IMG/VR virus record: IMGVR_UViG_3300045988_106278 | Coordinates: 1 to 64,000 of that record | Reading direction: 5' to 3' (one strand) | DNA length: 64,000 nt | Source of the DNA: a virus | Shown: one piece after another, positions 1 through 62,389 of the stretch | Position numbering within the stretch: position 1 is the first letter of the stretch | Layout: every line of letters begins with the position of its first letter | Translations under genes and position numbers: made by a program | Notes under the pieces: model-generated | What the model saw: the letters and a program-made list of their open reading frames with translations, nothing else | What the model was told of the DNA's origin: nothing | The model's database searches: none

Positions 1-9
1 CTTATGCGA

Positions 10-42
10 TCGTCGGCAGCGTCAGATGTGTATAAGAGACAG
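10..42. other. Residual Nextera transposase adapter (TCGTCGGCAGCGTCAGATGTGTATAAGAGACAG) at the contig end
   Basis: Exact 33-nt match to the Nextera read-1 adapter sequence; biological sequence starts at about 43. Confidence 0.9.
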
Positions 43-43
43 A

Positions 44-169
44 GCTATAGCAGCATCATGGTTAAATCCAAAATGGACTAAAAATTATTATAAGAATGGT
101 ATTGCAGGAGGCGCTGATGCTAATGGTACTAGTGTTGCAAAATATATAAATAAATTTAGAAATGCCTGA
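44..169 (+). CDS. Hypothetical protein, 3' fragment (5' end lost at the contig edge); ends with TGA
   Basis: Frame 2 is open from the adapter junction to TGA at 167-169. It overlaps the next ATG in the pattern ATGCCTGA. It has no in-frame TAG. Confidence 0.35.
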   Translation, partial: AIAASWLNPKWTKNYYKNGIAGGADANGTSVAKYINKFRNA

Positions 170-806
170 AATTTTTGAAGAATTAGATCGTCAAGCAGAT
201 AAATGGGAACCTACTGCGGCAGCTATATCTTTAGGTAGTTTAGGACTAGGTGCAGGTATAAGTACTACCGCTGTAGGTGCTCCTATAGGAGGAATTATTG
301 CTGGAGTAGGCTAGTTACCTTCTTTAGTTATAGATGGGTATCAAGCTGGTAGAGGATGGTACAAGACTTTTAAAGAATCCCCAAGTAATTTTGGAAATGC
401 CGTATGGAATACTTTGGAAACTGGGGCAGATATATTAGGAGCTAAATTTGCATCAGCTTTAGCTAAGGGAGGTTCTAATTTTCTTAGATCTAGCGTATAC
501 AAACCTGGTTATTACCCTAAACATCATTCTCCAAGAGTTAATGCTATGCGAAAGAGACAAGTCGACGTAATATTAAATTAGCAGAAAAAAGAAGCTACTG
601 AAAAATTGGCTAAAAGAGGAGTTCGATCAAGTCAAGGTTCATACTTTACATCTAAATTAAACTAGGAATTAAATAAACCTTATTTAGAGTAGGTAGCTAA
701 AAGAAATGCTACAATAACAAACGATGTTACTAAATTAAGTCCTAAAATATAGTTACCTATTTAGATTATACCTAATATTATTGATATACATGCCAGAAAT
801 AAATAA
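162..806 (+). CDS. Glycine-zipper-rich hypothetical protein; contains about 6 in-frame TAG codons (amber-recoded), stop TAA
   Basis: The frame is continuous from ATG 162 to TAA 804-806 only if TAG is read as sense. It encodes ...AAISLGSLGLGAGISTTAVGAPIGGIIAGVG(TAG)LPSLVIDGYQAGRGWYK.... It is not in the standard ORF track because of the TAGs. Confidence 0.6.
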
Positions 807-832
807 TATTTATAAATTTAATAAAAATAATA

Positions 833-952
833 ATGGATACATATACTTTAACAGAAAAGATTGAGGAACTACAAAGATTTTTAGATTTTGTAAATGAAAG
901 AGATAAATAGTTATGGAATAAATATTTAAAGAAATATGAAACAGGTGATTAA
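833..952 (+). CDS. Small hypothetical protein (39 aa) with one in-frame TAG
   Basis: ATG 833 to TAA 950-952 in frame 2, reading MDTYTLTEKIEELQRFLDFVNERDK(TAG)LWNKYLKKYETGD. Confidence 0.3.
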
Positions 953-1047
953 AACTGGAAAGGATTACTATGGAAAATAGAACACCCAGTAGAAATAGTA
1001 TATTCCGAAATTACTCTATATTCTTTATTAAAACTATGTAAGAAGAT

Positions 1048-1263
1048 ATGAAATAGTTTTTAATTAAATTAATAACAGCACATACTGGAATAAGTAGTAA
1101 AAGAGTATGTGGAATATTAGGATGGATAGTAAGTTTAATTATTCTAATATACTGTTCTATTAGTTAGATACAAGCTCCTGATATGATAGATACAGTTTTA
1201 TATTGTTGTATGGGATTACTAGGAATTGATAGTATAACTAGTATATGGAAAAATAAAGTATAA
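1048..1263 (+). CDS. Holin-like small membrane protein (71 aa) with two in-frame TAG codons
   Basis: MK(TAG)FLIKLITAHTGISSKRVCGILGWIVSLIILIYCSIS(TAG)IQAPDMIDTVLYCCMGLLGIDSITSIWKNKV. It has two hydrophobic helices and a charged C-terminus, and ends at TAA 1261-1263. Confidence 0.55.
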
Positions 1264-1265
1264 AT

Positions 1266-2381
1266 ATGCCAATAGTAGATGAAAGTAAACAAAATAAAGG
1301 AGTAAATAATAATACTCGGAATAAATAGATGGCTATAGATATGGAATATTATAATAGACTAAATCATCTTAGATTTAAATCTCCATATCTTGGTGCTAAA
1401 TATTAGTAGAGAGTTATTCCAGTTAGAACTTTAAATGGGGTACAAGATGTATTTGTAGATAATAGAGGGACTATAAAATAGGGAGGACATACTCATTCTA
1501 AATTATATAATTATAGTAATAAGAATAGAACCCATCCTATAAAAGGAGCTTATGCTAGAGAAGTAGATAGTTGGAATAATAATACTAGTCCTATTAAAGC
1601 ATTAGTTAATTCAGGAATAGGTTATGCTTTAGCTCCAGCAGCTTAGGCAGTATATGATTATACTAAAGGAGCTTTAGATATATCTAAGAATCCGACTAAA
1701 GCTAGTAATTATTTAGTAATGCTTCCTGTAATGGGATATGCTGTAAAAGCTCCTTTAAAACGTGGAGTAGAAGTAGCTATGAGAACTTCTAATAATGCTA
1801 ATCCTATAGAAGACATAGTATATAATATGCATAAAGCAAGTCCTAAAAAGCATGCTGGAGTATTGTCTTATATATCAACTGGTGTGGGTTACAATACCTA
1901 TGCTCCTGAAGCATATACTGGATTTTAGAAAGCAGCTAAAGGTAATGATATGATTGATGCTTATTTATATAATCCTTCTTATGGAGTAAAGAAAATAAAT
2001 GTAGATTATGGTCCACATGAGAATTATATAAGAAAGATATATCCATATAAAGATATTCCTGTATATGAAAATACTGAAACTTTAGATTTCTTTACTAAGA
2101 AACCTATGTAGAAAGCTTCTAATATAACTAATAAAACTCCTTGGAAAGGTGCTAATAATAATCTAGACTTTGGAGATACTGCTGGACATTTAGTTTAGGA
2201 AGGAACATCTAATGGTAAGAAAGTATATAGAGCACAAGATATTTGGAAGTTTAATCCTGATGAATATAAGTAGAAATGGAGTTCATATGATTTAGACAGT
2301 AAAGCTGTATTAGGATTAAAAATATTAGATAAGTTAGGAACTCCAGTAATAATAATAAGAACACCATGGCTATATAGGTAA
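1266..2381 (+). CDS. Hypothetical late protein (about 371 aa) with about 10 in-frame TAG codons
   Basis: Frame 0 is continuous from ATG 1266 to TAA 2379-2381 only with TAG as sense. The ORF-track fragment 1719..1928 is one inter-TAG piece of it. Confidence 0.6.
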
Positions 2382-3502
2382 TTACTGACAATGATTCAAT
2401 ATATGATTATTGGTATGAAGATGGGTATTTGTATGGTAGAAGAAAATCAAATAAAATCCCTTTTAGAATTAATTCTGATAAAGCTAATAAAATAATATAT
2501 CCATAGGTTTAGGCTAAAGGAGTAGATCCTGCTAAACCAACATCTACCTTAGTATACCATCCTGCAAAATATGAAGAAATGCCCACTGCTAAAAAAATAT
2601 CTATTCCTAAATAGGAAGAAGGAACAATATGGGAACGTGGTAAATAGTTGATTAATTTAGTAGGAAATGGATTAAGTAGAAAACTATAGTTATTTTTTGA
2701 TTCAGAACCTGAGCATACTAGTAAAAGAATTAAAATTTCTAATAAAAAAGTAACTAAAAATAAGAGGAGAGAAAATTTAGAAATAGAAATATCTCCAAAT
2801 AGTTATACTATAAATGATACTACTAAAATAAACTCTAGAAGATATCGTATACCAGAATCCATAAATTTAACAAAGCATACTTTTGGTTATAGAAATAGAG
2901 GTGATTATACTCCTATAAATAGTGTAGCAGCTCCTATTACTGCTTTTTCTAATTTCAAATCTAAAGAAAGCATATCTCCTAATAATTAGAATTATATAGG
3001 TATAGATTCTATTGGTAAATTTGTTTTTGGTAAATATTCAGATATTCCTAATGGAAGTATGATTTCTCCAACATTTAAAAATACAGTTACTGGTTTCAAA
3101 ACAGATTCTAAAGATAATGTATTATTCATGGAAAGTAATTCTAATGGTTCTAGAAAAAGTCCTATATTAAATGCCATAGTAAATGGTAAATCAGTAAATA
3201 ACAGACTAAATTTCTTAGCTAATAATAATAGAACTGATGAATATGGTTCTATAGCTGGAGGAAGAATAATTATATAGGCGGGTAAAGAAGTTCGTTTAGT
3301 TTCCGGAAGTATAGATAATATTAGAGATGAGATAGAAGCTATGAAATCTAGAAACAATGTTAAAACAGTAGATTTATATACTTTAGATAATGGTACTTAT
3401 CATTCAGGATTAAGAACTTTTGATAAAATATTTACTAGAGATGACTTACTAAAATATGATGCTCAAAATACGGGCGGAGGAAATTTTTTATATATAAAAT
3501 AA
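2366..3502 (+). CDS. Hypothetical late protein (about 378 aa) with about 9 in-frame TAG codons
   Basis: Frame 2 runs from ATG 2366, which overlaps the previous gene's end, to TAA 3500-3502. ORF-track fragment 3059..3277 lies inside it. Confidence 0.55.
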
Positions 3503-3513
3503 TTAAAACCACA

Positions 3514-3556
3514 ATAGCCGAAGTTTCTCAAATGAGAAGCCTCGGCTATTTTTTTA
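3514..3556 (+). terminator. Rho-independent terminator
   Basis: GC stem tagccgaag ... cctcggcta followed by TTTTTTT, immediately after the late-gene block. Confidence 0.7.
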
Positions 3557-3744
3557 AATTAATAAATATCCATCCCCAAATATTTATTAATAAGTAACAG
3601 ATAATTCATTTAACTTATCACAAAAATCAAGAGTTAATTGATTATCTTGTAAATCATTATCTCCTATAGTATCAATAATCTACTGTACTTCATTAAGTAC
3701 TTTGTTCATTTTAGACTTTAAGTCTTTTAATTCTTTGTTAGTCA

Positions 3745-4026
3745 TTAATCAATTTTTATATAACCATTAACATCTAGATTATCATATATAGAAGTCATTG
3801 TATATCCTGTAATTGGATTTCTATAATGATATTTTTTAATTTCAATATCTTCTTCTGAATTAGAATTTATATTTTGGTTGTCTTTAATCCATTGGTCTAA
3901 ATCAGCTTCTGTTCCATTCTCTAATTGAAATAGAATCTTAGGTTCTGATTTTAATCGTTTTAATTTTTTAGTAAGATTAGTTGTTTTTAAAATCTTACCA
4001 TTTAATTCATAAATTGCTGCTATCAT
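3745..4026 (-). CDS. Hypothetical protein (93 aa)
   Basis: ORF track. It is the downstream member of the minus-strand cassette that holds the suppressor tRNA. Confidence 0.5.
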   Translation of the reverse strand: MIAAIYELNGKILKTTNLTKKLKRLKSEPKILFQLENGTEADLDQWIKDNQNINSNSEEDIEIKKYHYRNPITGYTMTSIYDNLDVNGYIKID

Positions 4027-4101
4027 TTGAAGATTATGTTTTTAAAGTAGAATTAGCGTTATCCGAATAGCACCACGTGGAGGTTTCTACTTACGCTATT
4101 C

Positions 4102-4173
4102 TTCTCCCACAAGGATTCGAACCCTGGCTAAAAGATTTAGAGTCTTCTGTGCTAACCATTACACCATAGGAGA
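4102..4173 (-). tRNA. Amber suppressor tRNA, anticodon CUA (reads UAG); probably Gln identity
   Basis: Hand fold: acceptor TCTCCTA/TGGGAGA with one G-U pair. Anticodon stem is GAAGA/TCTTT with loop CTCTAAA (U33, CTA, A37). T arm is CAGGG-TTCGAAT-CCTTG; length 72 nt. U1-A72 and a D arm almost identical to the co-encoded tRNA-Gln(TTG) suggest Gln identity. Confidence 0.8.
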
Positions 4174-4182
4174 GTATTATCT

Positions 4183-4395
4183 TTATAGATAACTACTAAC
4201 ACTAAAAGGATTTTCAGTAGAAGTAGTTTTAATACTATTAGTGTCTACTGTAATAAACCCATTATGTGGTATATCTTTTAAAACCATATTATCTATAGTT
4301 AATTTAGGTCCATTAATAATATTTACTAGTTCTATTAATTGAGATACTGTAAGATTAGGAACTATCTTATTAATTTTTTGTAATGTTTCTATCAT
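4183..4395 (-). CDS. Hypothetical protein (70 aa)
   Basis: ORF track. It is immediately upstream of the suppressor tRNA in transcription order on the minus strand. Confidence 0.45.
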   Translation of the reverse strand: MIETLQKINKIVPNLTVSQLIELVNIINGPKLTIDNMVLKDIPHNGFITVDTNSIKTTSTENPFSVSSYL

Positions 4396-4579
4396 TTAAA
4401 AAATCCACTATGTGTTTAAATTCTTGTTTATATTTTTTATATTTAGAATTATCTAAATTAGAAGAAAAATCTTCTAAAGATATATCTGAGATAATTCCAA
4501 ATATTAGACAAGCATTGTTAAATGTTTCATCATCTAATTTACTACAATATTCTTCAAATTCATCTACCTTTTTAGTCAT
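4370..4579 (-). CDS. Hypothetical protein (69 aa)
   Basis: ORF track. It is the first gene of the minus-strand cassette. Confidence 0.45.
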   Translation of the reverse strand: MTKKVDEFEEYCSKLDDETFNNACLIFGIISDISLEDFSSNLDNSKYKKYKQEFKHIVDFLNDRNITKN

Positions 4580-4972
4580 GGTTATATGAATTACATTATC
4601 AATAACCTATAAATTTATATTATACTAATCAGGAAGGTCTTTAATACTTTGTATTAGTTGTTCTTTATTCATTTAATATTTCTTTTTGATTACACGAGTA
4701 ATATAGTCGAGGGAGGGAATATTAAAAGTTAATTTTTGTAAAAGTTAATATTTTAAGAAATTAAAATAAAAATTTTAAAATTTTTTTAGAGAAGATTTTA
4801 TATAGCCCCCTGGGGTTTAAAAAATAGGAATTTTTGTAAGTAAGTAGGATGAGGTTAAAATTTAAAAATTAATTTTTATTATGTGGGAGGGAGTAGACTA
4901 CCTCCTTAGTCCCCCCACCATATTTAGTCAAAAAACAAAACAAAAAATTAATAACAATTAAACATTAAGATT

Positions 4973-5443
4973 ATGAAAGGTACAAACAATGAAATCAGTC
5001 TCAGCCTTTTAGGCTTGGAGAAAATGTACAAGGCTGACTTAGGTGAAGCCTTAGTAGAAAACACTGAATTTGCTGTCAGTTTCCCTTACAGTGTAGAGCT
5101 CACGACACGTCAGATGTCCCGTGAACTCACTGCTGATGAGCAGCTCTTGCAACGCACTCATCAGTTAGGAATAGAGTTGACATCTGACGGGCGTGTTCCA
5201 AATGGCGAAGCTCCAATCTTAGTGGGGGTAGGTTTCACTAAGGACAATGACGGCAACATAGTCTTCGGCGGCGGTAACCACGTAATGATTGCCGGCAACT
5301 TTGCAACAGTTTTCGCCGGTAAGACTTGCAAAGAGTGCGCGGAGGCTTATGATAAAGCCGTTAAGGACAACAAGAAAGTAGTAATGAAAGCTACTAGGTC
5401 CGCTAGGGGTAAGATTTGGTCGGAGTTTAGTATCAAGAAGTAA
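4973..5443 (+). CDS. Hypothetical protein (156 aa); GC-rich codon usage atypical for this genome
   Basis: ORF track. Its GC content is far higher than its neighbours. A GC-rich hairpin lies upstream and a strong terminator downstream. Confidence 0.6.
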   Translation: MKGTNNEISLSLLGLEKMYKADLGEALVENTEFAVSFPYSVELTTRQMSRELTADEQLLQRTHQLGIELTSDGRVPNGEAPILVGVGFTKDNDGNIVFGGGNHVMIAGNFATVFAGKTCKECAEAYDKAVKDNKKVVMKATRSARGKIWSEFSIKK

Positions 5444-5445
5444 TT

Positions 5446-5471
5446 AAAGGGGACTTTGTCCCCTTTTTTTA
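5446..5471 (+). terminator. Rho-independent terminator
   Basis: aaaggggac tttg tcccctttttttt. Confidence 0.8.
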
Positions 5472-5502
5472 CTGTTTCTATTTATTTTTTTGTAGTGTTT
5501 GT

Positions 5503-5745
5503 ATGTTTAAGACATTTTATGGATTAGCATTTAAACATTATTTCCTTAACTCTGAAACATTAGAACTTTATCGTAATAAATATATTTCAAATATTGTTTA
5601 TGGTTGGTTTTTAATTGTCTCGGTTGATGGAGGAGCTACATGGGAAGAAGTGAAACATGTTAGTAGTGGAATCTTGGAAATAAGATATAAAAACTATCTT
5701 ATTGGATTAATTTCCGATGTTGAGGAATCTAAAGAGATAAAATAG
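5503..5745 (+). CDS. Hypothetical protein (80 aa)
   Basis: ORF track. Confidence 0.35.
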   Translation: MFKTFYGLAFKHYFLNSETLELYRNKYISNIVYGWFLIVSVDGGATWEEVKHVSSGILEIRYKNYLIGLISDVEESKEIK

Positions 5746-17755: not shown

Positions 17756-18742
17756 ATGGAACAGAAACTTAATATAGCAGAAATCTTGAAGAATAAACCA
17801 AGGGGTACTAAATTGTATTCTATGATTCATGGTAAATGTAGTTTTGAAGCAGTAACAGATGAAATTTTTAAAATAAACTTCTGTACTTCAAAATTTGGTT
17901 TAACACAATCTGGAGAATGTACCTTAATTAAATTTGGTAATATGTATGATGGTGGAGAATGTATTATCTTCCCATCTAAGGAAATGCGTGATTGGTCTAA
18001 GTTCCAATGGGAAAAAGGTGATGTACTGATAAGTAATGATGGTGGCACAGAGGTTATCTTTGACGAATGGTACGATGATACTTATACAAGTTTTTATTGT
18101 AAGCATTACCTTAACAGTGAAGATAAGAATAAAATCGTATATTACGAAGAATTCTTATGCACAACTGAAAGATATTCCCTTGAAGATAAGGATATTGCTC
18201 AGACCTACATTAACACCATAGAGAAGCGTTTGGATGGCAAGCTCAATCTTGAAACTTTGGAGATTGAAAAGCAACCAAAGTTCAAGGATGGAGATATACT
18301 TAGTTGTAATGAAGGTTCATTTACAAGACATACAACTTTAATACTTCATAAGGATGAAAATATAACAGAATCAATAGTTTCTTTGATTAGACATAAGAAC
18401 CTTGTTGAAACTAATGTACCTATAGATAATTTTCTTCTTTCAAGACTTTATCCTGCTAGAGAAGATGAAAAGAAAGAACTTTTTGATGCCCTTGCAAAAG
18501 GAGGAAAAGCTTGGGATGCTGAGAAGAAAATAATTGTTAACTTGAAGCATAAGTGCGAGTTTAAGCCATTCGATAAAGTATTGGGACGAAATGAGAAAGA
18601 TGATGTATGGGAAGCTGACCTCTTTTCTCATTATAGAAAAGAATCACAATATCCTTTTCGGTGTATCGGATGTAGTCGTAAGTATTGTATTCCTTACGAA
18701 GGTAATGAACATCTTCTAGGCATAAGAAATAATCCTGAATAG
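17756..18742 (+). CDS. Hypothetical protein (328 aa)
   Basis: ORF track. Confidence 0.55.
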   Translation: MEQKLNIAEILKNKPRGTKLYSMIHGKCSFEAVTDEIFKINFCTSKFGLTQSGECTLIKFGNMYDGGECIIFPSKEMRDWSKFQWEKGDVLISNDGGTEVIFDEWYDDTYTSFYCKHYLNSEDKNKIVYYEEFLCTTERYSLEDKDIAQTYINTIEKRLDGKLNLETLEIEKQPKFKDGDILSCNEGSFTRHTTLILHKDENITESIVSLIRHKNLVETNVPIDNFLLSRLYPAREDEKKELFDALAKGGKAWDAEKKIIVNLKHKCEFKPFDKVLGRNEKDDVWEADLFSHYRKESQYPFRCIGCSRKYCIPYEGNEHLLGIRNNPE

Positions 18743-25293: not shown

Positions 25294-26880
25294 ATGGAAC
25301 ATTTAGTTCTTATTGGTGTTATCGCAGTCGTTATTATTGTACTGCTTGTTATTATTGCTACAATGTATGTTAAAGCTCCTCCTTCGATGGCGTACATTCT
25401 TTCAGGTTTTCGTAAGGAGCCACGAGTACTTATCGGTGGTGGTGGAGTAAAAATTCCTGTACTTGAACGATTAGATAAAGTATATCTTGGTCAAGTAACA
25501 GTTGATGTTAAGACTTCACAACCAGTTCCTACTCATGATTTCTTGGATGTAATGGTAGATGCCGTATGTAAAGTTAGGGTAAAACCTGATACAGAAGGCA
25601 CTAGACTTGCAGCTAAGAACTTCTTGAATATGAATTCTGTGCAGATTGCTGCTCAGGTGAAAGATTCTTTGGAGGGTAATATGCGTGAAGTAGTAGGTTC
25701 TCTGGACTTAATTAAGATTAACACTGATAGAGATGCATTCTCTGATGAAATTCAGAAGAAGGCAGCTCCTGATATGGCTAAGTTAGGTCTTGAGATTTTG
25801 TCTTGCAATATTCAGAATATTACTGATGAGAAAGGCTTGATCCGTGATTTGGGAGCTGATAATACAGCAGCTATTCAGAAAAATGCTAAGATTACTCGTG
25901 CTAATGCTGATAGAGACGTAGCTAAGGCTCAAGCTGAGGCTGACAATGAAGCTAATGAAGCACGAGTAAAGGCTGATACCATTATTGCTGAACGTAATAA
26001 TGAATTAGCTATTAAGAGAGCTGAACTGAAGAGATTGTCTGATATTAAGAAGGCTGAATCTGATGCTGCATATGAAATTCAGCAGCAGGAGCAGCAGAAG
26101 ACTATTAATATCAAGACTGTAGATGCTGATATTGAGAAGACTCGTAAAGAACAGACCTTATCTGAAGAGAAGATTAAGATTAAGCAGAATGAGTATCTTG
26201 CAGATGTAAATGCTAAAGCTGATGCTGACAAGTATCAGACAGAAATTGATGCTCAGGCTGCTTTGGAGAAGCAGAAGCGTGAGGCTGAGGCTGAAGCTTA
26301 TAAAGCAGAGCAAACTGCTAAGGCTGTAAAAGCTAAGGCTGAAGCTAATCGTTATTCTCAGGAGCAGGAGGCAGCAGGTATTCGTGCTAAGGGCGAAGCT
26401 GAAGCATATGCTACTCAGCAGACCTTAACTGCGGAAGCTGAAGGTACTAAAGCTAAACTTTTGGCAGAAGCTGAAGGTACTAAAGCTAAACTTTTGGCAG
26501 AAGCTGAAGGTGTGAAGGCTAAGGGTCTTGCAGAAGCTGAGGCTATGCAGAAGAAGGCTGAAGCATACAGTAAGTATGGCTCTATTGCTGTAATTGACAT
26601 GCTTTCTAAACTTAATGAGAAAGTTCTTCCTGATATGGCTAAGTATATTGCTGAACCTATGAGTAAGATTGGCAATATGACAGTTTATGGAACTAATGGT
26701 TCTGAGGCTTCTGGTATTTCTGGTAATGTGCCTGCTATTATTAAGCAGACTCGTGACATTGTAAAAGATGCCACAGGTGTAGATATGGCAGACATTATGA
26801 AGGCTAACACCATTGATGCTAAGGTTAACAAGAATGTTAACGTTAATGGCGATGTAGAAAACACCAATGTAAATGTATAA
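25294..26880 (+). CDS. Flotillin-like SPFH/band-7 domain protein (528 aa) with N-terminal TM helix and Ala/Glu-rich coiled coil
   Basis: N-terminal TM LVLIGVIAVVIIVLLVIIATMYV, followed by a region read as SPFH-like, then a long AEAEA coiled coil with tandem repeats. GC-rich codon usage. Confidence 0.7.
   Translation: MEHLVLIGVIAVVIIVLLVIIATMYVKAPPSMAYILSGFRKEPRVLIGGGGVKIPVLERLDKVYLGQVTVDVKTSQPVPTHDFLDVMVDAVCKVRVKPDTEGTRLAAKNFLNMNSVQIAAQVKDSLEGNMREVVGSLDLIKINTDRDAFSDEIQKKAAPDMAKLGLEILSCNIQNITDEKGLIRDLGADNTAAIQKNAKITRANADRDVAKAQAEADNEANEARVKADTIIAERNNELAIKRAELKRLSDIKKAESDAAYEIQQQEQQKTINIKTVDADIEKTRKEQTLSEEKIKIKQNEYLADVNAKADADKYQTEIDAQAALEKQKREAEAEAYKAEQTAKAVKAKAEANRYSQEQEAAGIRAKGEAEAYATQQTLTAEAEGTKAKLLAEAEGTKAKLLAEAEGVKAKGLAEAEAMQKKAEAYSKYGSIAVIDMLSKLNEKVLPDMAKYIAEPMSKIGNMTVYGTNGSEASGISGNVPAIIKQTRDIVKDATGVDMADIMKANTIDAKVNKNVNVNGDVENTNVNV
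26438..26503 (+). repeat. Tandem 33-nt repeat (2 copies plus a partial one) inside the flotillin-like gene, encoding AEAEGTKAKLL repeats
   Basis: gaagctgaaggtactaaagctaaacttttggca repeated exactly at 26438 and 26471. Confidence 0.8.
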
Positions 26881-34562: not shown

Positions 34563-35062
34563 ACTTAGTTTGGTTGAAATTAATAAAGCGAATCTTAACC
34601 CATAAGTATTATGTTGCTAAATATTGCTTTCAAATAGGATTATATTGGCAAGGTATTACTCATGATTTGTCTAAATTTAGTTTTACAGAATTTTCAAGAG
34701 CTATTAAGTATTGGGATGATAATATAAGTTCATTAGCGAATGAATGTAGAATATTAGGATATAGTCAAACATTCCTTCACCATAGAGGAAGAAATCCTCA
34801 TCATTATGAATATTGGATACATTCCTTAGATAATGGAGGAATTCCTGCTAAAATGCCTAAAAAATATGTTCTAGAACTTATATGTGATTATTTAGCAGCA
34901 GCTAAAACATATGGAGCTGACCCTAGAAGAGAATATACATGGTGGCTTAAACAACAGCCTCATATGAAAATCCACAAAAAAACTAAGAGTTATATAACTG
35001 AAGTGTTTTATAAATATAGTATAGGTTTAACATTAAAAGAATCAATTAATGGAAATTATTAA
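34559..35062 (+). CDS. Hypothetical protein, possible HD-family phosphohydrolase (167 aa)
   Basis: The spacing of His/Asp residues (LTHKY ... GITHDLSKF ... FLHHRGRNPHHYEYW ... D) resembles an HD motif, weakly. Sits directly upstream of the NAD+ cluster. Confidence 0.3.
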   Translation: MNLVWLKLIKRILTHKYYVAKYCFQIGLYWQGITHDLSKFSFTEFSRAIKYWDDNISSLANECRILGYSQTFLHHRGRNPHHYEYWIHSLDNGGIPAKMPKKYVLELICDYLAAAKTYGADPRREYTWWLKQQPHMKIHKKTKSYITEVFYKYSIGLTLKESINGNY

Positions 35063-35891
35063 TGCAACTGATGGCTATAAGCTTGGTCATCATCGTATGT
35101 ACCCAAAGGGTACACAAATGGTCTATAGTAACTGGACTCCTAGAAGTAATCGTTACTTCCCAGAAGCTATAGAAGGTTCTGTAGTATTTGGTATTCAGTA
35201 CTTTGTAAAGAAGTATTTGATAGAGGAATTTAACAAATGGTTTGCTCTTCCTAAGGAAGAAGCTATTAAGCAATTTGCTTATCGTGTAGGTAACTTTGTA
35301 GACCTTAACCAGGTTGGGACAAAGCATATTGAAGAACTCTATGATTTAGGATATCTTCCTATTGAAATTAAAGCTCTTCCTGAAGGTTCTATCTGTCCTA
35401 TAAGAGTACCTATGATGACTATTAAGAACACTCTCCCGGACTTCTTTTGGTTGACTAATTACTTGGAAACTTTAATTAGTTGTACTCTATGGCTTCCTTG
35501 TACTTCTGCAACAAGTGCTCGTCTTTATAAGAAGAGACTTATGGAACATGCTAGAAAGACTGGATTCCCAGAGGAAGTAAATCTAGGGTTCTCTTGTCAC
35601 GATTTCTCAATGAGAGGTATGGCAGGACTTGATGCTGCTATTATCTCCGGTATGGCTCATATGACCTCATTCTGTGGTAGTGAAACAATTCCTGCTATTG
35701 AAGCAGTAGAGCATTATTACGATGCAAATGTTACTGAAGAACTTGTAGCTGCAACTGTCCCGGCTTCGGAACATTCAGTGGCTTGCTCTACTATTAGTGA
35801 TTTTGAAGATAATGTAGAAGAAATAATCTTAGATGATTTTGGTAAATTAATTGGATATATTGATAAAAATGGAGACAAAAATTTGTTCTAA
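35049..35891 (+). CDS. nadV: Nicotinamide phosphoribosyltransferase-like (NAMPT/Namat), N-terminal fragment of a split gene
   Basis: TDGYKLGHHRMYPKGT and ...VPASEHSV are NAMPT family motifs. It ends ...FGKLIGYIDKNGDKNLF*, while the rest of the family domain is in 36458..37300. Confidence 0.75.
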   Translation: MEIINATDGYKLGHHRMYPKGTQMVYSNWTPRSNRYFPEAIEGSVVFGIQYFVKKYLIEEFNKWFALPKEEAIKQFAYRVGNFVDLNQVGTKHIEELYDLGYLPIEIKALPEGSICPIRVPMMTIKNTLPDFFWLTNYLETLISCTLWLPCTSATSARLYKKRLMEHARKTGFPEEVNLGFSCHDFSMRGMAGLDAAIISGMAHMTSFCGSETIPAIEAVEHYYDANVTEELVAATVPASEHSVACSTISDFEDNVEEIILDDFGKLIGYIDKNGDKNLF

Positions 35892-36480
35892 TTGTGGTTA
35901 GGAAAAACCTATTTCAGAATTTCCTAAGTGTAAAAGAAATAAAGATGGGTTAGATACTCATTGTAAAGAATGTAGAAATGCTAAAAATAAAGCATATAGA
36001 GAGGCTAATAAAGATAAAGTTAAAGTAGCTAGACATAAATATTATGAAGAAAATAAAGAGCATATATTAGCACAAAAGAAAATTTATGCAGATGCTCATA
36101 AAGAAGAAAAAGCTGCTTATGACAAAATTTATAGACAAGAAAATAAAGATAAATTACGGGAGCAAAAAAGAATATGGGAAAGAAATTCTTTAAAGTTTAA
36201 AATTCGTAATAACCTCAGACGTAGAGTGGCACATACTATGGAATTAATCGGATGTTCTATAGAATTTTTAAAAGAATATATTGCAAACAAATTTACTGAA
36301 GGAATGTCCTGGGATAATTATGGTGAATGGCATTTAGATCATATAAGACCATGTTCCTCTTTTGATTTATCTGATCCTATATAGCAAAAAGAGTGTTTCT
36401 GTTATAAAAATTTACAGCCTTTATGGGCTATTGATAATTTGAAAAAAGCGTATAAATATGAAAATTCAAAAAGCGTCTGA
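35869..36480 (+). CDS. HNH homing endonuclease (203 codons, two in-frame TAG), inserted between and overlapping both NAMPT halves
   Basis: METKICSNCG(TAG)EKPISEFPKCKRNKDGLDTHCKEC... has a Zn-finger-like N-terminus. GEWHLDHIRPCSSFDLSDPI(TAG)QKECFCYKNLQPLWAIDNLKK is an HNH motif. Ends at TGA 36478-36480. Missed by the ORF track because of the TAGs. Confidence 0.7.
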
Positions 36481-37300
36481 AGAGGACAAAAAACTTATTG
36501 GAGAATTATTGTCAATTAAAAGATTGATAAATGAATTATATCCTATTGGAATTGTATCTATAGTTAGTGATACTTATGATTTTTGGAGAGTGATAGAACG
36601 TATTCTCCCTCGTCTGAAAAAAGACATTATGAAGCGTGATGGTCGAGTAGTAATTCGTCCTGATAGTGGTGACCCAGTAGATATTATTTGTGGTCTTCGT
36701 ACAAATCCTCATTACCACACTGCAATGAAGGAAGGCAAGTACTATTGTGATTTCAATCCATTTATGGATGATGATGAAAGTCATTATGTAGAAGTATCTG
36801 AAGGTCAGTATTATGGAGCATATTATATGCTAGGTAAAATCTTTGGATGGAATACTACTGTAAATGATTATCGTTATCCAAGCACCAAGGTTGGGTTGCT
36901 CTATGGAGATTCTATCACTCTAGAGCGTCAGCGTGATATCTATGCTCGATTAGAGAACGCTCATATGGCAGCTTGTAATCTTGTTCTTGGTATTGGATCT
37001 TATACTTATCAGTTTAAGAGTCGTGATTCTTTGGGATTCGCAGTTAAAGCAACTGCTTGTATAATCAATGGAAAGCTTATAGAAATCTATAAGCATCCAA
37101 AGACTGATGATGGAACAAAGAACTCTCTCAAAGGTCTTATTAGAATTGAAGAAGAGAATGGTAAGTATGTCGCTTATGACCAGCAGACTAAGGATGCAGA
37201 ACTGCAAGGTTGTCTTAAAACAGTCTTTGTAGATGGAGAATTAGTAAGAGAATATTCTCTTTCTGAGATTCGTGAACGTGTAAATTCAACATTAGTATGA
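36458..37300 (+). CDS. nadV: Nicotinamide phosphoribosyltransferase-like (NAMPT/Namat), C-terminal fragment of a split gene
   Basis: SIVSDTYDFW and VIRPDSGDPVD (the RPDSGD motif) are NAMPT hallmarks. It carries its own ATG, which overlaps the 3' end of the HNH gene. Confidence 0.75.
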   Translation: MKIQKASEEDKKLIGELLSIKRLINELYPIGIVSIVSDTYDFWRVIERILPRLKKDIMKRDGRVVIRPDSGDPVDIICGLRTNPHYHTAMKEGKYYCDFNPFMDDDESHYVEVSEGQYYGAYYMLGKIFGWNTTVNDYRYPSTKVGLLYGDSITLERQRDIYARLENAHMAACNLVLGIGSYTYQFKSRDSLGFAVKATACIINGKLIEIYKHPKTDDGTKNSLKGLIRIEEENGKYVAYDQQTKDAELQGCLKTVFVDGELVREYSLSEIRERVNSTLV

Positions 37301-47664: not shown

Positions 47665-48435
47665 ATGAATTTGAATTTTGGTGGTCTTGGTGATATTAAT
47701 CCTACAAGTAAGAAAGGTCTTCGTCCTTATGGAATTTATCTCGTTCAGTTAAAAAGTATAGAAGTTAAGGAGGGTCAAGGTAAGCAAGACCCTAATACAA
47801 CTTGGAAATCTCTGGTACTTCATTTTGAAGGAGAGCAAGGAACTTATCAAGAATCATTGTTTTATCCTAATGAAAGTTCTGCTAAAAGATATGAGGGTAA
47901 GAGAAAGGATTCTAAGGGTGTAGAATTCCCATATGTACTTCCTTCAGCATTTGAACAGCTTAAGGGTTTTATGCTGCATATTATAACAGTAGTAGGTGGT
48001 GATAAAGCTAAAGAATTGTTTATAACTAAAGCTCCTGCTTGTAAGAGTACTGACCAATTCATGCAGCTTTTCCAGGCAGTATTGACTAAGCATTGTATGA
48101 ATAAAAACTTTTATTTAAAGCTTAGCGGTCGTAAGGAAAAGAAAAAGGATGAAAAGGGAATTTCAAAGGAAACTGGTAATGTATTTGCTAAGATTCCTGA
48201 TATTGGAGCTATTAATAGTGATGGACAGTTCTATATCCGTGATAATTTTGCTAGCTTAGAGGAAGATAAATTGTCATTCTCTAGTTATGAGATTAAGCAG
48301 AAAGAGGATATGGAGAAGCGTAAGCCTACTGCTCCTGTGCCAGCAGCTGATTCAGAAGAGGCTAAATCTATTGACTCTACTGAAGGCAAGGAGGCTCAAG
48401 ATGAAGACTTCGATGCTATGCTGGCAGATATGTAG
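47665..48435 (+). CDS. Hypothetical protein (256 aa)
   Basis: ORF track. Acidic C-terminus. Confidence 0.55.
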   Translation: MNLNFGGLGDINPTSKKGLRPYGIYLVQLKSIEVKEGQGKQDPNTTWKSLVLHFEGEQGTYQESLFYPNESSAKRYEGKRKDSKGVEFPYVLPSAFEQLKGFMLHIITVVGGDKAKELFITKAPACKSTDQFMQLFQAVLTKHCMNKNFYLKLSGRKEKKKDEKGISKETGNVFAKIPDIGAINSDGQFYIRDNFASLEEDKLSFSSYEIKQKEDMEKRKPTAPVPAADSEEAKSIDSTEGKEAQDEDFDAMLADM

Positions 48436-57023: not shown

Positions 57024-60000
57024 ATGTTATTTATGGTAATAAAGAGAGACGGAATTAAAGAAGAGTTTAACAGAAACAAAATTAGAGATGCTGTACTAAA
57101 GGCTTTTGGAATTACCCAAAATTCTAGTAAAACAATGGACGAAGATATTTACAGAGCAGTTACTGAGATAACTAATTCTGTAGTAGAGACTGAAGATCAA
57201 TCTATTGAGGATATTCAAGACCAAATTGAGGAACTCCTAATGGATTTAGGGTATCATGACGTAGCTAAAAAATATATTCTATATCGTAAAGAACGTGAAG
57301 ATATTAGAAATCATGCTACTAGGGATATTAAATTTATTCATAATTTTGTAAAGTCTGATAATACTGCTAATGCTACTATTGATGATAATAGTAATGTTGG
57401 AACTAAAGGTATTGGAGTATTAAACGCTGAAATACATAAAGTCGATAATAAACTTACTAATACAGAATGGTGGGAAAGTTTTGTAAAGAAGAGAGACCCT
57501 AACTTTAATATAAAAGTTATGAGGAATGACTTTAAAACTATTTTGTATCCTCATGACTCATCTTCTCAAGTAGGGGAACCATATTGTATGGCAACTTCTA
57601 TGTATCCTTTCTTGTTGTTTGGATTAGAGAAATTAGGAGGTAAATCAGCTGTTCCAAAGAACCTTGATTCATTCTGTGGTATTTATGTAAATTTAAACTT
57701 TGCATTAGCCTCTGAAATTAAAGGAGCAGTAGCTACTCCTGAGTTTCTGATGTATATGGATTATTTCTGTAGAAAAGAATGGGGAAATAATTATTATCTC
57801 AAACCAAGTGTAAAAATAACTACAGATTATTGTATAAAACAGAAAACTATTGGCAGTCAAATTGATCAATATTTCCAACAGGTAACTTATTCAATTAATC
57901 AAATAGCAGGATCTAGAGGAATGCAGTCTCCATTTACAAATTTTTCATTCTTTGATAAATATTTCTTTGAAGGTATGTTTGGAGAATTTGTATTTCCAGA
58001 TGGAACAAAGCCAGAATGGAATTCTACTAATTGGTTACAAAGACGTTATTTACATTGGTTAAATCAAGAAAGATTAAAATGTATTTTAACATTTCCTGTA
58101 TGTAGTTATGCCTGCTTAACAGATAAGGAAGGGAATTTTAAAGATTTAGATACTTTCCATTTTATATGCAGTGAATATGCTCAAGGAAATTCTTTCTTTA
58201 CTTATCTGTCTCGTAGTGTAGATAGTTTAAGTTCATGTTGCTTTTCTAAAGATACTAAGTTTTTATGGAAATCTAGCACTTCTGGAGTACATCTAACTAC
58301 CTTTGAAGAATTTAAAAATCTTCCATATAAAAATATGAAAGAGAATTTTAAAGTATTTCACAATGGCTCTTGGGTAGCTGGCAAAGTTATAGATTTACCT
58401 AATCGTCCTATGTATAAAGTTACCACTTATAATAATAAAGAGTTTATTATGACTGATAATCATATAAATGTAACTTTACAAGGAGAAAAACCAACAGAAC
58501 AGTTAACTATTAATGATTACTTATTATTCAATACTTCTAAGTTAAGTGCTATTCCAGATAATAATGAACATTTAACTTACGCCCAAGGTTATGTAATTGG
58601 ATCATTTTTAGGTGATGGCTCTTTTAGTTCTGAAATAAATGGAGTTATCTATGATATTAATTTATCCCAAAATGAACAAAAATATAAACGTTCTAAATTT
58701 TATTGGAATCTCGCATTAAAACAAATGGGATATGAACCTAACGTGGTTTTAAAAGAAGTAGTAAATAATGTTTATCCATTAAGAGTATCTAATAAAAATT
58801 TAGTTGCTTTTATTCAAAAATGGACTAATTGGTATAGAGGAACTTATGCTTATAATAAGAAATTAAACATGAATTGTCTTCTTCAATCTGTAAAATTTAG
58901 AGAAGGTATACTACAAGGATGGTATGATACTGATGGGGGAAATTCTAACAGATGCTACACGACTTCTCCTGAATTAGCAGAAAATATGGAAGCCTTAATA
59001 ACTTCTTTAGGAATGCAAAGCATTATTAATATATCAGATAGAACAGATGAAGAAGTTATAATACGCGGGGAACATTATAAAAGAAATTACCCATTATATT
59101 GTGTAAGATGGTATGAAGATGCAAATCATAGAGCTAATAAAGACGAGGAACATAGTTGGATAAAATATAATAATGGAATATACTTTAAAATAAAATCTAT
59201 CGAACCATATGATTACAATGATAGAGTATATTGTATAGAATGTAAAAATGCTTCTGAACCATATTTTACATTACCAAGTGGATTAATTACTCATAATTGT
59301 CGTCTTCAAAATGCCGTACAAGAAAATACATTTAATACTACTAATGGTCAAATAGGTATAATGACTGGTAGTAAAAATGTTATTACTCTTGATTTAAATA
59401 GAATTATTCAAGATTGGCAGCATACTTGGTCTGATTATAAAGACCATATTGATGTTGATACCAATAAATGTTGTTTCCCAGTAGATTGGATTACACATAA
59501 AGACTTCCAAGAAGGAATTAAGAAATATATAGAAAATATTCTTGAAAGAGTTTATTTGTATCAGTATGCTTATAACGACTTAATGCATTGGTGCAAAGAT
59601 CATCATTTATATGCTGCTTATGATGCTGGTTTTATTAATCTTGATAAACAGTATTTAACTATTGGAATTAATGGCTTAAATCAGGCTGCTGAATACTTAG
59701 GAATGGAATGTAATAATAATATTTATTATAAGACATTCTGTAGATTAATATTCAGTACTATAAAAGAACAGAATAAGAAACATAAAACTAAAACAGCTCA
59801 ATTTAATACTGAACAAGTACCCGCAGAAAGTGCTTCAGTAAAACTTTATAATAGAGATAAAGCTGATGGCTATTGGATTCCTACAGATACTAATCTGTAT
59901 GCTAGTTATATATTTAAACCTAATGATACACATATAAGTATACTTGATAAAATTATACTTCATAGTTCTGAATTCGCTGCTGATGAATTAGATGGAGGTT

Positions 60001-61948: not shown

Positions 61949-62389
61949 ATGATGAAAGAAAATAAGACAGAATTAGAACAGAATATTGACGAGATTATTG
62001 AAAGCTCTAGAAAAATTTCTAATATTTTTACTTTGGAAACTGCTAGATTGATTAAGGCTGCACTAGTTAATAATAAGCACTCTGAAAAGCCTGTTTCCGA
62101 ATTAGAAGTTCTTCAGAAAATGGCTAAAGAGCGTGAAAAGTCTATAGTTCTCTACACAAATGCAGGTCGTCAGGACTTAGCTCGTTTAGAGTCTAAAGAA
62201 CTTGATTGTATTAAAGAGATGATGCCTAAAGAACCTTCAGAGAAGGAGATTGAAGAACTTATTGCTGAATTAATGGAAGCAACAACTCTTACTATTAAAG
62301 ATACTAAAGGTGTTATTGCAGATGTTCAAAGTAGATTCCCTACTGCTCAGAAGAGTACTATTGTTAAAATATTTAAATCTTTACTGTAA
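61949..62389 (+). CDS. GatB/YqeY domain protein
   Basis: TARLIKAAL...VLYTNAGRQDLARLESKELDCIKEMMP...EIEELIAEL...DTKGVIADVQSRFPT matches the YqeY-family pattern. Confidence 0.55.
   Translation: MMKENKTELEQNIDEIIESSRKISNIFTLETARLIKAALVNNKHSEKPVSELEVLQKMAKEREKSIVLYTNAGRQDLARLESKELDCIKEMMPKEPSEKEIEELIAELMEATTLTIKDTKGVIADVQSRFPTAQKSTIVKIFKSLL

What the first reader, a model, noticed from the sequence alone, without database searches (positions are those of the whole stretch)
162..3502. Amber (TAG) codon reassignment in a late/lysis gene block
Five consecutive + strand genes, one holin-like, contain between 1 and about 10 in-frame TAG codons each. Their frames are otherwise clean and they terminate at TAA. 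The partial gene at 44-169 and the HNH gene end at TGA. So TAG is sense here while TAA and TGA remain stops. This is the signature of code-15-like recoding reported in crAss-like phages. It also means standard ORF callers fragment or miss these genes.
Basis: partly seen in the sequence, partly recalled or inferred. Interest (0 to 1): 0.7.

Follow-up and report, generated by a model that had tools for sequence, protein, structure and literature searches.

The report
Amber codon read as glutamine
The late and lysis genes at the start of this gut phage fragment use the stop codon TAG to encode glutamine, read by a phage tRNA encoded next to them, while the early genes use the standard code; this is real, but it is a trick already described for crAss-like phages.

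Summary
Five consecutive + strand genes (162-3502) carry 6, 1, 2, 9 and 8 in-frame TAG codons, have no in-frame TAA or TGA, and all end at TAA. Chance probability is about 1e-46. Codon-level alignments with five related phage contigs show TAG exchanging mainly with CAA/CAG, including at invariant Gln sites, so TAG means Gln (code 15).

An amber-suppressor tRNA (anticodon CUA, tRNA-Gln-like) lies at 4102-4173 on the - strand.

From about 4.9 kb to 64 kb the genes (replication, nucleotide metabolism, tRNAs) use the standard code. About a tenth of them stop at TAG. In one of these the TAG is replaced by TAA in relatives.

The block is the tail of a lysis cassette. The portal protein of a 95% identical relative places the phage among large (165-193 kb) crAss-like phages. 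Late-gene TAG-to-Gln recoding with a phage suppressor tRNA is already published for these phages, so novelty is low.

Side observation: in relatives the suppressor tRNA gene is split in its anticodon by group I-like introns.

The parts
44..169 (+). 3' end of a lytic transglycosylase (SLT domain) gene, cut by the contig end; stops at TGA
   Evidence: Aligns with the C-termini of full-length proteins in L002, L004, L006 and L007 that carry precomputed PF01464 hits.
162..806 (+). g1: 214-aa protein with a Gly/Ala-rich hydrophobic N-terminal segment; 6 in-frame TAG, stop TAA; function unknown
   Evidence: All 6 TAG are conserved in L001. A neighbouring CAG in the window is TAG in L001.
833..952 (+). 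g2: 39-aa protein, 1 TAG, stop TAA
   Evidence: Homologues in L002 and others end at the same place. TAG exchanges with CAR and GAA in relatives.
1048..1263 (+). g3: 71-aa holin-like membrane protein with two hydrophobic segments; 2 TAG, stop TAA
   Evidence: phrog_1322 membrane protein, E 3.5e-4. Conserved in all five relatives. 8 synonymous and 0 non-synonymous differences from L001. The holin function is inferred from size, topology and position.
1266..2381 (+). g4: 371-aa protein of unknown function; 9 TAG, stop TAA
   Evidence: 66 homologues. Conserved motifs KRGxEVAMRTS and QDIWKFNP. TAG/CAR exchanges at conserved Gln sites. No Pfam, PHROG or fold match.
2366..3502 (+). g5: 378-aa protein; 8 TAG, stop TAA. 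Its C-terminal domain is fused to peptidoglycan hydrolase domains in other phages
   Evidence: Homologues P0092-P0095 and P0112 carry PF01510 (Amidase_2), and P0113 carries PF01464 (SLT).
3513..3550 (.). Hairpin followed by a T run: likely two-way terminator between the convergent + and - strand units
   Evidence: Minimum free energy -22.6 kcal/mol, z -8.0 against shuffles.
3587..3745 (-). 52-aa gene with 1 in-frame TAG (3680-3682), stop TAA
   Evidence: The same gene with TAG at the same codon is present in L002, L004, L006 and L007.
3745..4026 (-). 93-aa gene without TAG, directly downstream of the suppressor tRNA; function unknown
   Evidence: Conserved in L006 and L002. No Pfam or PHROG hit.
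4102..4173 (-). Amber-suppressor tRNA, anticodon CUA, tRNA-Gln-like
   Evidence: ARAGORN; Rfam tRNA 63.6 bits; cloverleaf with canonical D and T loops. It has U1-A72 and A73, and shares the stretch TATGGTGTAATGG with the window's tRNA-Gln(UUG). It sits at the same position in L002, L006 and L007.
4183..4395 (-). 70-aa ORF between the 100-aa gene and the tRNA; no TAG
   Evidence: An ORF only; not supported by homologues here.
4370..4672 (-). 100-aa gene with 2 in-frame TAG (4607, 4625), stop TAA
   Evidence: Homologues in L002, L004 and L007 have CAA/CAG where the window has TAG, and the reverse.
12129..12201 (+). Ordinary phage tRNA-Gln (anticodon UUG), used for comparison with the suppressor
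17756..18742 (+). Example of an early gene that stops at TAG
   Evidence: The homologous codon is TAA in L011 and L023. Read-through would add 7 codons.
47665..48435 (+). Early gene that stops at TAG immediately followed by TAA
35869..36480 (+). HNH/endonuclease VII-type ORF with 2 in-frame TAG (35899, 36382), stop TGA. It lies between the two halves of a NAMPT/NAPRTase gene in the otherwise standard-code block
   Evidence: phrog_1035, E 2.3e-26, when TAG is read as Gln. Flanking halves carry PF18127/PF04095. Sequence.

Best explanation
The window is the junction between the late (recoded) and early (standard-code) halves of a large crAss-like gut phage genome.

In the late and lysis genes TAG is a sense codon for glutamine. 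It supplies about 70% of all Gln codons there. TAA and TGA stay stops.

Decoding is done by a phage-encoded amber-suppressor tRNA (anticodon CUA, derived from tRNA-Gln) at 4102-4173. The host glutamine-charging system presumably aminoacylates it, because the central anticodon base U35 and the weak U1-A72 pair are kept. That step is inferred.

Early genes are translated with the host's standard code, and some of them end at TAG.

The likely consequence is also inferred, not shown. Until the suppressor tRNA has accumulated, host release factor 1 stops ribosomes at the first TAG of the lysis and virion genes. Recoding would then act as a translational time-lock on late and lysis functions.

Shown here: the recoding, its Gln meaning, the tRNA gene and the early/late partition. 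Inferred: who charges the tRNA, when it is expressed, and the time-lock role.
For: Open frames:
- 26 TAG, 0 TAA and 0 TGA in 1073 codons, P about 1e-46.
- 25 of the 26 TAG are conserved in MT835539 at 95% identity. The 26th lies in a deletion. Synonymous changes exceed non-synonymous ones in g3 and g4.

Meaning of TAG:
- Gln is the top partner in 171 informative columns, with a working control.
- TAG sits at invariant Gln sites of two families.
- TAG+CAA+CAG make up 3.45% of late codons, against 2.6% Gln in early genes. CAA+CAG alone would give only 1.0%.

Suppressor tRNA:
-. It is syntenic in three relatives. A sibling tRNA with the same D arm and anticodon CUG (Gln) exists in L102.

Partition:
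- 53 early ORFs (12,127 codons), called without reading through TAG, remain long and intact. Stops of about 100 early ORFs are TAA 64, TGA 23, TAG 13.
- TAG exchanges with TAA at a homologous early stop.
- In the 176.6 kb pseudo-genome of the 95-99% identical relative, the + block at 8-85 kb has 0-5 TAG per 1000 codons. The - block at 85-172 kb plus the lysis block has 10-44, and 18-44 in all but one 5-kb bin.

Lysis context:
- SLT and Phage_lysozyme2 genes lie upstream in relatives.
- The g5 domain is fused to amidase or SLT domains elsewhere.

Literature describing the same system: PMC7886860, bioRxiv 10.1101/2021.08.26.457843, PMC9523058 (abstract).
Against: - No expression or proteomic data exist for this phage.
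- At g5 codon 304 the distant homologues mostly have Lys where this lineage has TAG. One TAG in the relative L001 aligns with TAT (Tyr) in the window. Both are ordinary substitutions but show that single sites are not decisive.
- The suppressor tRNA sits among TAG-containing genes on the same strand, not in the early block. Its early expression is therefore not evident from the layout.
- The TAG share of Gln codons is no higher in the lysis genes (70%) than in the relative's structural genes (66%). A lysis-specific bias is not seen here.
- No release-factor gene was found, so how competition with RF1 is handled is unknown.
Confidence: 0.92

Rival explanations
1. TAG is sense but encodes another amino acid (Lys, Glu, Tyr or pyrrolysine) rather than Gln.
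For: Lys and Glu are the second and third commonest partners of TAG. Lys dominates opposite TAG at g5 codon 304 in distant homologues. One TAG/TAT exchange. ARAGORN labels the tRNA 'Pyl' from its anticodon.
Against: The Gln score (261) is far above Glu (150) and Lys (143). True Lys and Glu codons score highest for themselves in the same test, and true CAA shows Lys and Glu as its usual substitutes. Invariant Gln sites are TAG in relatives. Without TAG the late proteins would have only 1.0% Gln. The tRNA has a normal D loop with GG and a TTCGAAT T loop, which from my knowledge is not the tRNA-Pyl architecture.
Confidence: 0.03
2. The TAG codons are real stops: the genes are pseudogenes, or the TAGs are assembly or sequencing errors.
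For: Under the standard code the region has only short ORFs. The contig starts with adapter sequence.
Against: Only TAG interrupts the frames, never TAA or TGA. The same TAG positions recur in independent assemblies from Mexico, a baboon and other samples. There is purifying selection across the TAGs. A matching suppressor tRNA is encoded alongside. Roughly half of the relative's genome, including portal and terminase, has the same feature.
Confidence: 0.01
3. The recoding is real, but its main role is not timing of late genes. The suppressor tRNA may serve to corrupt host proteins by read-through (an anti-defence role). Alternatively, in-frame TAGs may have accumulated neutrally once the suppressor was fixed.
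For: Both ideas are proposed for crAss-like phages (PMC7886860; PMC12386605). Some Zeta phages keep a CTA suppressor without any recoding. Here the lysis genes are no more TAG-rich than the structural genes. CAG is almost gone from late genes, as expected if CAG-to-TAG transitions drifted in.
Against: The sharp early/late boundary and the use of TAG as a stop in early genes are hard to explain by drift alone. They fit a temporal switch. Neutral accumulation should also affect early genes.
Confidence: 0.3

Closest known systems
TAG-to-Gln (genetic code 15) recoding of late genes in crAss-like phages (Yutin et al. 2021, PMC7886860; Borges et al., bioRxiv 10.1101/2021.08.26.457843; proteomic proof in Peters et al. 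2022, PMC9523058)
   Same: In-frame TAG confined to late, structural and lysis genes. Early and replication genes in standard code. Phage-encoded tRNA-CUA. TAG aligns with Gln. Low-GC gut phage whose portal is related to crAss-like phages.
   Different: Nothing essential. In this lineage the lysis genes are not more strongly recoded than the structural genes, unlike the ~105 kb crAss-like phages analysed by Borges et al. Gln incorporation was not measured for this phage.
Zeta-group crAss-like phages (145-192 kb; Yutin 2021; Lera phage, PMC12386605)
   Same: Related contigs are 165-193 kb. A forward block holds nucleic-acid metabolism and tRNA genes, and a reverse block holds virion genes. There are many inteins and intron-type endonucleases. 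A GatB/YqeY-type 'tRNA amidotransferase' gene is present. A suppressor tRNA-CUA is present.
   Different: Lera recodes TGA to Trp and its CTA suppressor appears unused. Here TAG is heavily used. Phylogenetic placement in the Zeta group was not tested.
Lak megaphages and Agate/Jade phages with release factors or 'code change modules' (Borges et al.)
   Same: A suppressor tRNA near a recoded lysis cassette. Standard-code early genes.
   Different: No release factor (GGQ motif search) and no aminoacyl-tRNA synthetase was found in the window or in the relative's 176 kb. The genome is much smaller than Lak.
Classical amber suppressors derived from tRNA-Gln (E. coli supE; from my own knowledge)
   Same: A CUA anticodon on a tRNA-Gln-like body. 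U35 and a weak 1-72 pair, the known GlnRS recognition elements, are retained.
   Different: Here the suppressor is a phage gene that serves hundreds of designed-in TAG codons. It is not a mutant host tRNA rescuing nonsense mutations.

Membership tests
Code-15 (TAG to Gln) recoded phage | Conserved genes interrupted only by in-frame TAG, intact when TAG is read as sense | tested here: met
   26 TAG, 0 TAA and 0 TGA in 1073 codons. Long-ORF coverage rises from 0% to 82%.
Code-15 (TAG to Gln) recoded phage | TAG positions align with Gln in homologues | tested here: met
   Gln is the top partner (54 of 171 columns; score 261 against 150 and 143). The control recovers 37 of 45 codons. Invariant Gln sites are TAG in relatives.
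Code-15 (TAG to Gln) recoded phage | TAA and TGA remain stop codons | tested here: met
   All seven recoded genes at 162-4672 end at TAA. The partial SLT gene and the HNH-type endonuclease ORF (35869-36480) end at TGA. No in-frame TAA or TGA. The candidate TAA read-through of g2 was rejected.
Code-15 (TAG to Gln) recoded phage | Phage-encoded suppressor tRNA with anticodon CUA | tested here: met
   4102-4173 (-), Rfam 63.6 bits, cloverleaf, syntenic in relatives.
Code-15 (TAG to Gln) recoded phage | Recoding limited to late genes, early genes in standard code | tested here: met
   One exception is an intron-type endonuclease ORF with 2 TAG in the early block.
Code-15 (TAG to Gln) recoded phage | Gln actually incorporated at TAG (peptide evidence) | not testable with these tools
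   Needs proteomics, as in PMC9523058.
crAss-like phages (Crassvirales) | Portal and large terminase homologous to those of crAss-like phages | tested here: met
   Tested on the 95% identical relative MT835539, because these genes lie outside the window. The portal hits 89 other records at under 60% identity, nearly all named crAss-like phages or unnamed gut phage contigs; the listed hits are 24-31% identical. TerL matches phrog_6681 and the portal phrog_6547. The window's helicase has weak hits to Cellulophaga phi14:2 and cr127_1.
crAss-like phages (Crassvirales) | Major capsid protein and the large phage RNA polymerase typical of the order | not tested
   Giant recoded ORFs (1200-3400 aa) exist in the relative but were not annotated.
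Zeta group of crAss-like phages | [quoted passage not shown] | tested here: met
   Related contigs are 165-193 kb. NrdD intein. Split NAMPT gene. Terminase region with LAGLIDADG ORFs and an intein-bearing nuclease in the relative.
Zeta group of crAss-like phages | Phylogenetic placement within the Zeta clade | not tested
   No Zeta reference sequences were available to build a tree.

The most novel reading that the evidence does not exclude
The conserved - strand cassette around the suppressor tRNA may be a dedicated code-switch module. It consists of a 100-aa gene with TAGs, the tRNA-CUA, a 93-aa gene and a 52-aa gene with a TAG. Its small proteins, perhaps together with the early-encoded YqeY/GatB-tail-like protein (61949-62389), could help charge the tRNA with Gln or blunt release factor 1.

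In a tenth or more of related phages the switch would additionally depend on self-splicing of a group I intron that splits the tRNA's anticodon. That would also explain why many recoded phages seem to lack a suppressor tRNA.
Probability: 0.1. Interest if true: 0.65.

Novelty: already known. Interest (0 to 1): 0.25.

Why it matters
For annotation it matters directly. With the standard code the first ~4.7 kb of this window, and about half of the whole genome, breaks into meaningless fragments. The lysis and virion genes only become visible with code 15.

Biologically it is one more clean example of a single genome that uses TAG both as a stop (early genes) and as Gln (late genes). That supports the published idea of a translational switch during infection. 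It does not open a new question.

The intron-split suppressor tRNA genes seen in relatives may be worth a separate look. Standard tRNA finders miss them, and surveys report detectable suppressors in only about 40% of TAG-recoded phages.

Tried and rejected
- TAA read-through of g2. The frame stays open from the TAA at 950-952 to a TGA overlapping the g3 start, and a tRNA-like gene with anticodon UUA exists at 11396-11480. I rejected this because g2 homologues end at the same place and no late gene has an in-frame TAA.
- Function of g4. There are no Pfam or PHROG hits. The AlphaFold model has mean pLDDT 60, with only the C-terminal half confident. Foldseek against the PDB gave nothing below E 0.8.
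- A PDB sequence search with the SLT homologue gave only a chance hit.
- The sigma-70 promoter scan of 1-5600 found no more sites than shuffled sequence, so the timing of tRNA expression could not be inferred. GC skew is uniformly positive and shows no origin in the window.
- Rfam gave no group I intron hit for the ~1 kb insertions in L001 and L004. Only the ORF-less 223-nt version in L133 gave a weak full-length match.
- A search for release factors by the GGQ motif in the window and in the relative's 176 kb found none. Pfam scans of 51 early proteins found no synthetase or release factor.
- Supplementary tables of Borges et al. are not held, so I could not check whether the related baboon scaffold is one of their recoded phages.
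Full report
THE OBSERVATION

The window is AT-rich (30.2% G+C). Its first 42 bases are a Nextera adapter, so phage DNA starts at 43 and the contig is cut inside a gene.

Translating all frames with TAG marked shows five consecutive + strand genes:
- g1 162-806: 6 TAG
- g2 833-952: 1 TAG
- g3 1048-1263: 2 TAG
- g4 1266-2381: 9 TAG
- g5 2366-3502: 8 TAG

All five start at ATG and end at TAA. The partial gene 44-169 ends at TGA.

In 1073 in-frame codons there are 26 TAG and no TAA or TGA. The other two frames of the same DNA carry TAA or TGA at 9.5% of codons. The open frames have a chance probability of about 1e-46.

Under the standard code the region holds no ORF of 100 codons. With TAG as sense, such ORFs cover 82% of it. 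For 4900-64000 the change is only from 75% to 77%.

WHAT TAG MEANS

A GenBank record from human faeces (MT835539, unannotated) is about 95% identical. All 25 alignable TAG codons are conserved in it. In g3 and g4, synonymous differences outnumber non-synonymous ones: 8 to 0 and 19 to 10.

A protein search with g4 found 66 homologues on contigs of up to 193 kb. Their database translations do not match a standard-code translation of the DNA, so the Gln residues shown at TAG positions in those proteins are circular evidence. I therefore worked at the codon level on the DNA of five relatives: L001, L002, L004, L006 and L007.

Results of the codon-level comparison:
- TAG and CAA/CAG replace each other freely.
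- The invariant Gln of the g4-family motif QDIWKFNP is TAG in L002.
- The Gln of the lytic transglycosylase motif G-L/W-F-Q is TAG in four of five relatives.
- Over 13 late-gene families there are 202 alignment columns with TAG, 171 of them with a sense codon in another sequence.
- Gln is the commonest partner (54 columns), followed by its usual substitutes Lys (35) and Glu (24).
- The summed BLOSUM62 score is 261 for Gln, against 150 for Glu and 143 for Lys.

The same procedure applied to ordinary codons recovers the right amino acid for 37 of 45. True CAA has Lys and Glu as its main non-identical partners.

Composition agrees. TAG+CAA+CAG make up 3.45% of codons in g1-g5, against 2.6% Gln in early genes. 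CAA+CAG alone would give only 1.0%. TAG therefore encodes Gln.

THE DECODER

ARAGORN and Rfam both find a tRNA with anticodon CUA at 4102-4173 on the - strand. It folds as a normal cloverleaf with canonical D and T loops. ARAGORN's 'Pyl' label reflects the anticodon only.

It has U1-A72 and A73, like the window's own tRNA-Gln(UUG), and shares the stretch TATGGTGTAATGG with it. Suppressor tRNAs sit at the same place in L002, L006 and L007. The L002 copy has the acceptor stem UGGGG/CCCCA, typical of bacterial tRNA-Gln from my own knowledge.

Among 80 viral contigs holding this tRNA's D arm, 68 have the intact CUA anticodon and one (L102) has CUG, the Gln anticodon.

Charging by the host glutamine system is inferred from these features. 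It was not tested.

EXTENT AND PARTITION

The recoded region does not stop at 3502. After a strong hairpin terminator (3513-3550, -22.6 kcal/mol) come - strand genes that converge on the lysis block:
- a 100-aa gene (4370-4672, 2 TAG)
- a 70-aa ORF
- the tRNA-CUA
- a 93-aa gene
- a 52-aa gene (3587-3745, 1 TAG)

The TAG of the 52-aa gene is conserved in four relatives. Those of the 100-aa gene exchange with CAA/CAG.

From 4.9 kb on, everything is on the + strand and reads in the standard code. The genes there include:
- helicases and a DnaB-type helicase
- RNase H
- a NAMPT gene and a macro-domain protein
- an anaerobic ribonucleotide reductase with an intein
- 14-16 tRNA genes

Of about 100 ORFs there, 64 end at TAA, 23 at TGA and 13 at TAG. 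Read-through of the TAG stops would mostly add 0-19 codons. For the gene 17756-18742 the terminal TAG is TAA in two relatives, so TAG is a true stop there.

The one exception in the early block is an endonuclease ORF (35869-36480) that splits the NAMPT gene. It has two in-frame TAG. Borges et al. describe a recoded intron endonuclease in an early gene of another phage clade.

Joining MT835539 and MT835492 gives a 176.6 kb pseudo-genome of a 95-99% identical relative. Its + block (8-85 kb) has 0-5 TAG per 1000 codons. The - block (85-172 kb: portal, terminase, giant proteins) plus the lysis block has 10-44, and 18-44 in all but one 5-kb bin. The window therefore holds only the tail of the recoded half.

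WHAT THE GENES ARE

- The partial gene 44-169 is the end of an SLT-domain lytic transglycosylase.
- Relatives have a Phage_lysozyme2 gene and a small zinc-finger protein just upstream.
- g3 is a 71-aa two-segment membrane protein. This is consistent with a holin but not proven.
- The C-terminal domain of g5 is fused to Amidase_2 or SLT domains in other phages, which points to a cell-wall role.
- g1, g2 and g4 remain of unknown function. A structure model of the g4 family found no fold match.

'Late/lysis block' is a fair description.

LINEAGE

The relative's portal protein (46 TAG) matches 89 other phage records, nearly all named crAss-like phages or unnamed gut phage contigs. The listed hits are 24-31% identical. 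Its terminase fragment and portal hit PHROGs 6681 and 6547.

Four features fit the Zeta group as described in PMC7886860 and PMC12386605:
- genome size of 165-193 kb
- a forward metabolic and tRNA block with a reverse virion block
- many inteins and intron endonucleases
- a GatB/YqeY-type gene

No tree was built, so group membership is not settled.

HOW IT LIKELY WORKS, AND RIVALS

The early genes are read with the host's code. Once tRNA-CUA is made and charged with Gln, ribosomes can pass the TAGs of the late genes. Before that, RF1 would end translation at the first TAG. This would keep lysis and virion proteins off. This time-lock role is the published hypothesis and is inferred here, not shown.

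Three points argue for caution:
- The tRNA lies among TAG-containing genes rather than in the early block.
- Lysis genes are no more TAG-rich (70% of Gln codons) than structural genes (66%).
- No release factor or synthetase gene was found.

The alternative roles are sabotage of host proteins by read-through, or neutral accumulation after capture of the suppressor. They cannot be excluded, but they explain the sharp early/late boundary less well.

Other amino acids for TAG, and pseudogenes or errors, are effectively excluded.

COMPARISON AND NOVELTY

Every element has been described for crAss-like and other gut phages: TAG to Gln, late-gene restriction, the phage tRNA-CUA, and TAG still used as a stop in early genes. 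Gln at TAG has been confirmed by proteomics in two crAss-like phages. Near-identical sequences are already public, though unannotated. The finding is correct and useful for annotation, but it is already known.

SEEN IN PASSING

- In L001 and L004, and in at least seven IMG/VR contigs, the suppressor tRNA gene is interrupted between U35 and A36.
- In the six IMG/VR contigs where the 3' exon could be located, the insertions are 223-1003 nt long. Those of L001 and L004 are about 1 kb.
- Each of these mapped insertions ends in G, and all but one follow a T (that one boundary is ambiguous).
- All the mapped insertions except the 223-nt one contain a long ORF (about 270-300 aa); that of L001 matches Pfam HNH.
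- The ORF-less 223-nt version gives a weak but full-length match to the Rfam group I intron model, including the J8/7-P7 signature.
- ARAGORN in default mode misses these genes.
- CAG is nearly absent from late genes. CAA:CAG is 10:1 there, against 193:123 in early genes, as if TAG had replaced CAG.
- A tRNA-like gene with the ochre anticodon UUA (11396-11480) is conserved in the relative. It has weak stems, and there is no sign of TAA reassignment.

Noticed in passing
window 1-42: Nextera transposase adapter sequence at the start of the window. The contig end is an assembly artefact and cuts the SLT gene.
   Followed up: yes
L001 13607-14616 (-); L004 about 14200-15280 (-); L133 about 700-922; L134, L142, L152, L168, L171: In relatives the amber-suppressor tRNA gene is split inside the anticodon (between U35 and A36). 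The mapped insertions are 223-1003 nt long and end in G; all but one follow a T. All but the 223-nt one contain a long ORF of about 270-300 aa, which in L001 matches Pfam HNH. The 223-nt ORF-less one gives a weak full-length Rfam group I intron match (16.8 bits, E 0.057). About 10 of 80 family members in IMG/VR are interrupted. Default tRNA finders miss them. The window's own copy is intact. I found no report of this in the papers searched.
   Followed up: partly
window 11396-11480 (+): tRNA-like gene with the ochre anticodon UUA. It is 85 nt with a long extra arm, a C-U mismatch in the anticodon stem and a weak T stem. It is conserved in MT835539. No late gene has an in-frame TAA, so there is no sign that TAA is reassigned.
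   Followed up: partly
window 10886-10966, 11588-11657, 14025-14097 (+): Three further tRNA-like genes with irregular anticodon regions. Two are found only by Rfam; for one of these, ARAGORN needs an 11-nt 'intron' to fit it. The third is called by ARAGORN with a two-base anticodon.
   Followed up: no
window 162-4672 versus 4973-62389; L008 27843-49522: CAG is almost absent from recoded genes. CAA:CAG:TAG is 10:1:26 in g1-g5 and 94:15:208 in the relative's structural genes. In early genes CAA:CAG is 193:123. TAG seems to have replaced CAG specifically.
   Followed up: partly
window 35049-37300 (+): A NAMPT/NAPRTase gene is split into two halves (35049-35888 and 36458-37297). An HNH/endonuclease VII-type ORF (35869-36480) lies between them, carries two in-frame TAG and ends at TGA. 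It is probably an intron with a recoded homing endonuclease inside the standard-code block.
   Followed up: partly
window 57024-60311 (+): Anaerobic ribonucleotide reductase (NrdD, with an ATP-cone) interrupted by a LAGLIDADG-type intein.
   Followed up: partly
window 61949-62389 (+): A free-standing YqeY/GatB-tail-like protein (PF09424, E 8.6e-16; phrog_1460 'tRNA amidotransferase'). From my own knowledge, this domain family binds tRNA-Gln in other systems. It might assist charging of the suppressor tRNA. Such genes also occur in phages that are not recoded.
   Followed up: no
window 17756-18742 and 47665-48435 (+): Early genes that stop at TAG. In the first, the homologous codon is TAA in two relatives. 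In the second, TAG is directly followed by TAA. After the code switch these proteins would gain 7 and 0 residues.
   Followed up: yes
window 25294-26880 (+): A phage-encoded SPFH/Band 7 and flotillin-like membrane protein (528 aa) in the early block.
   Followed up: no
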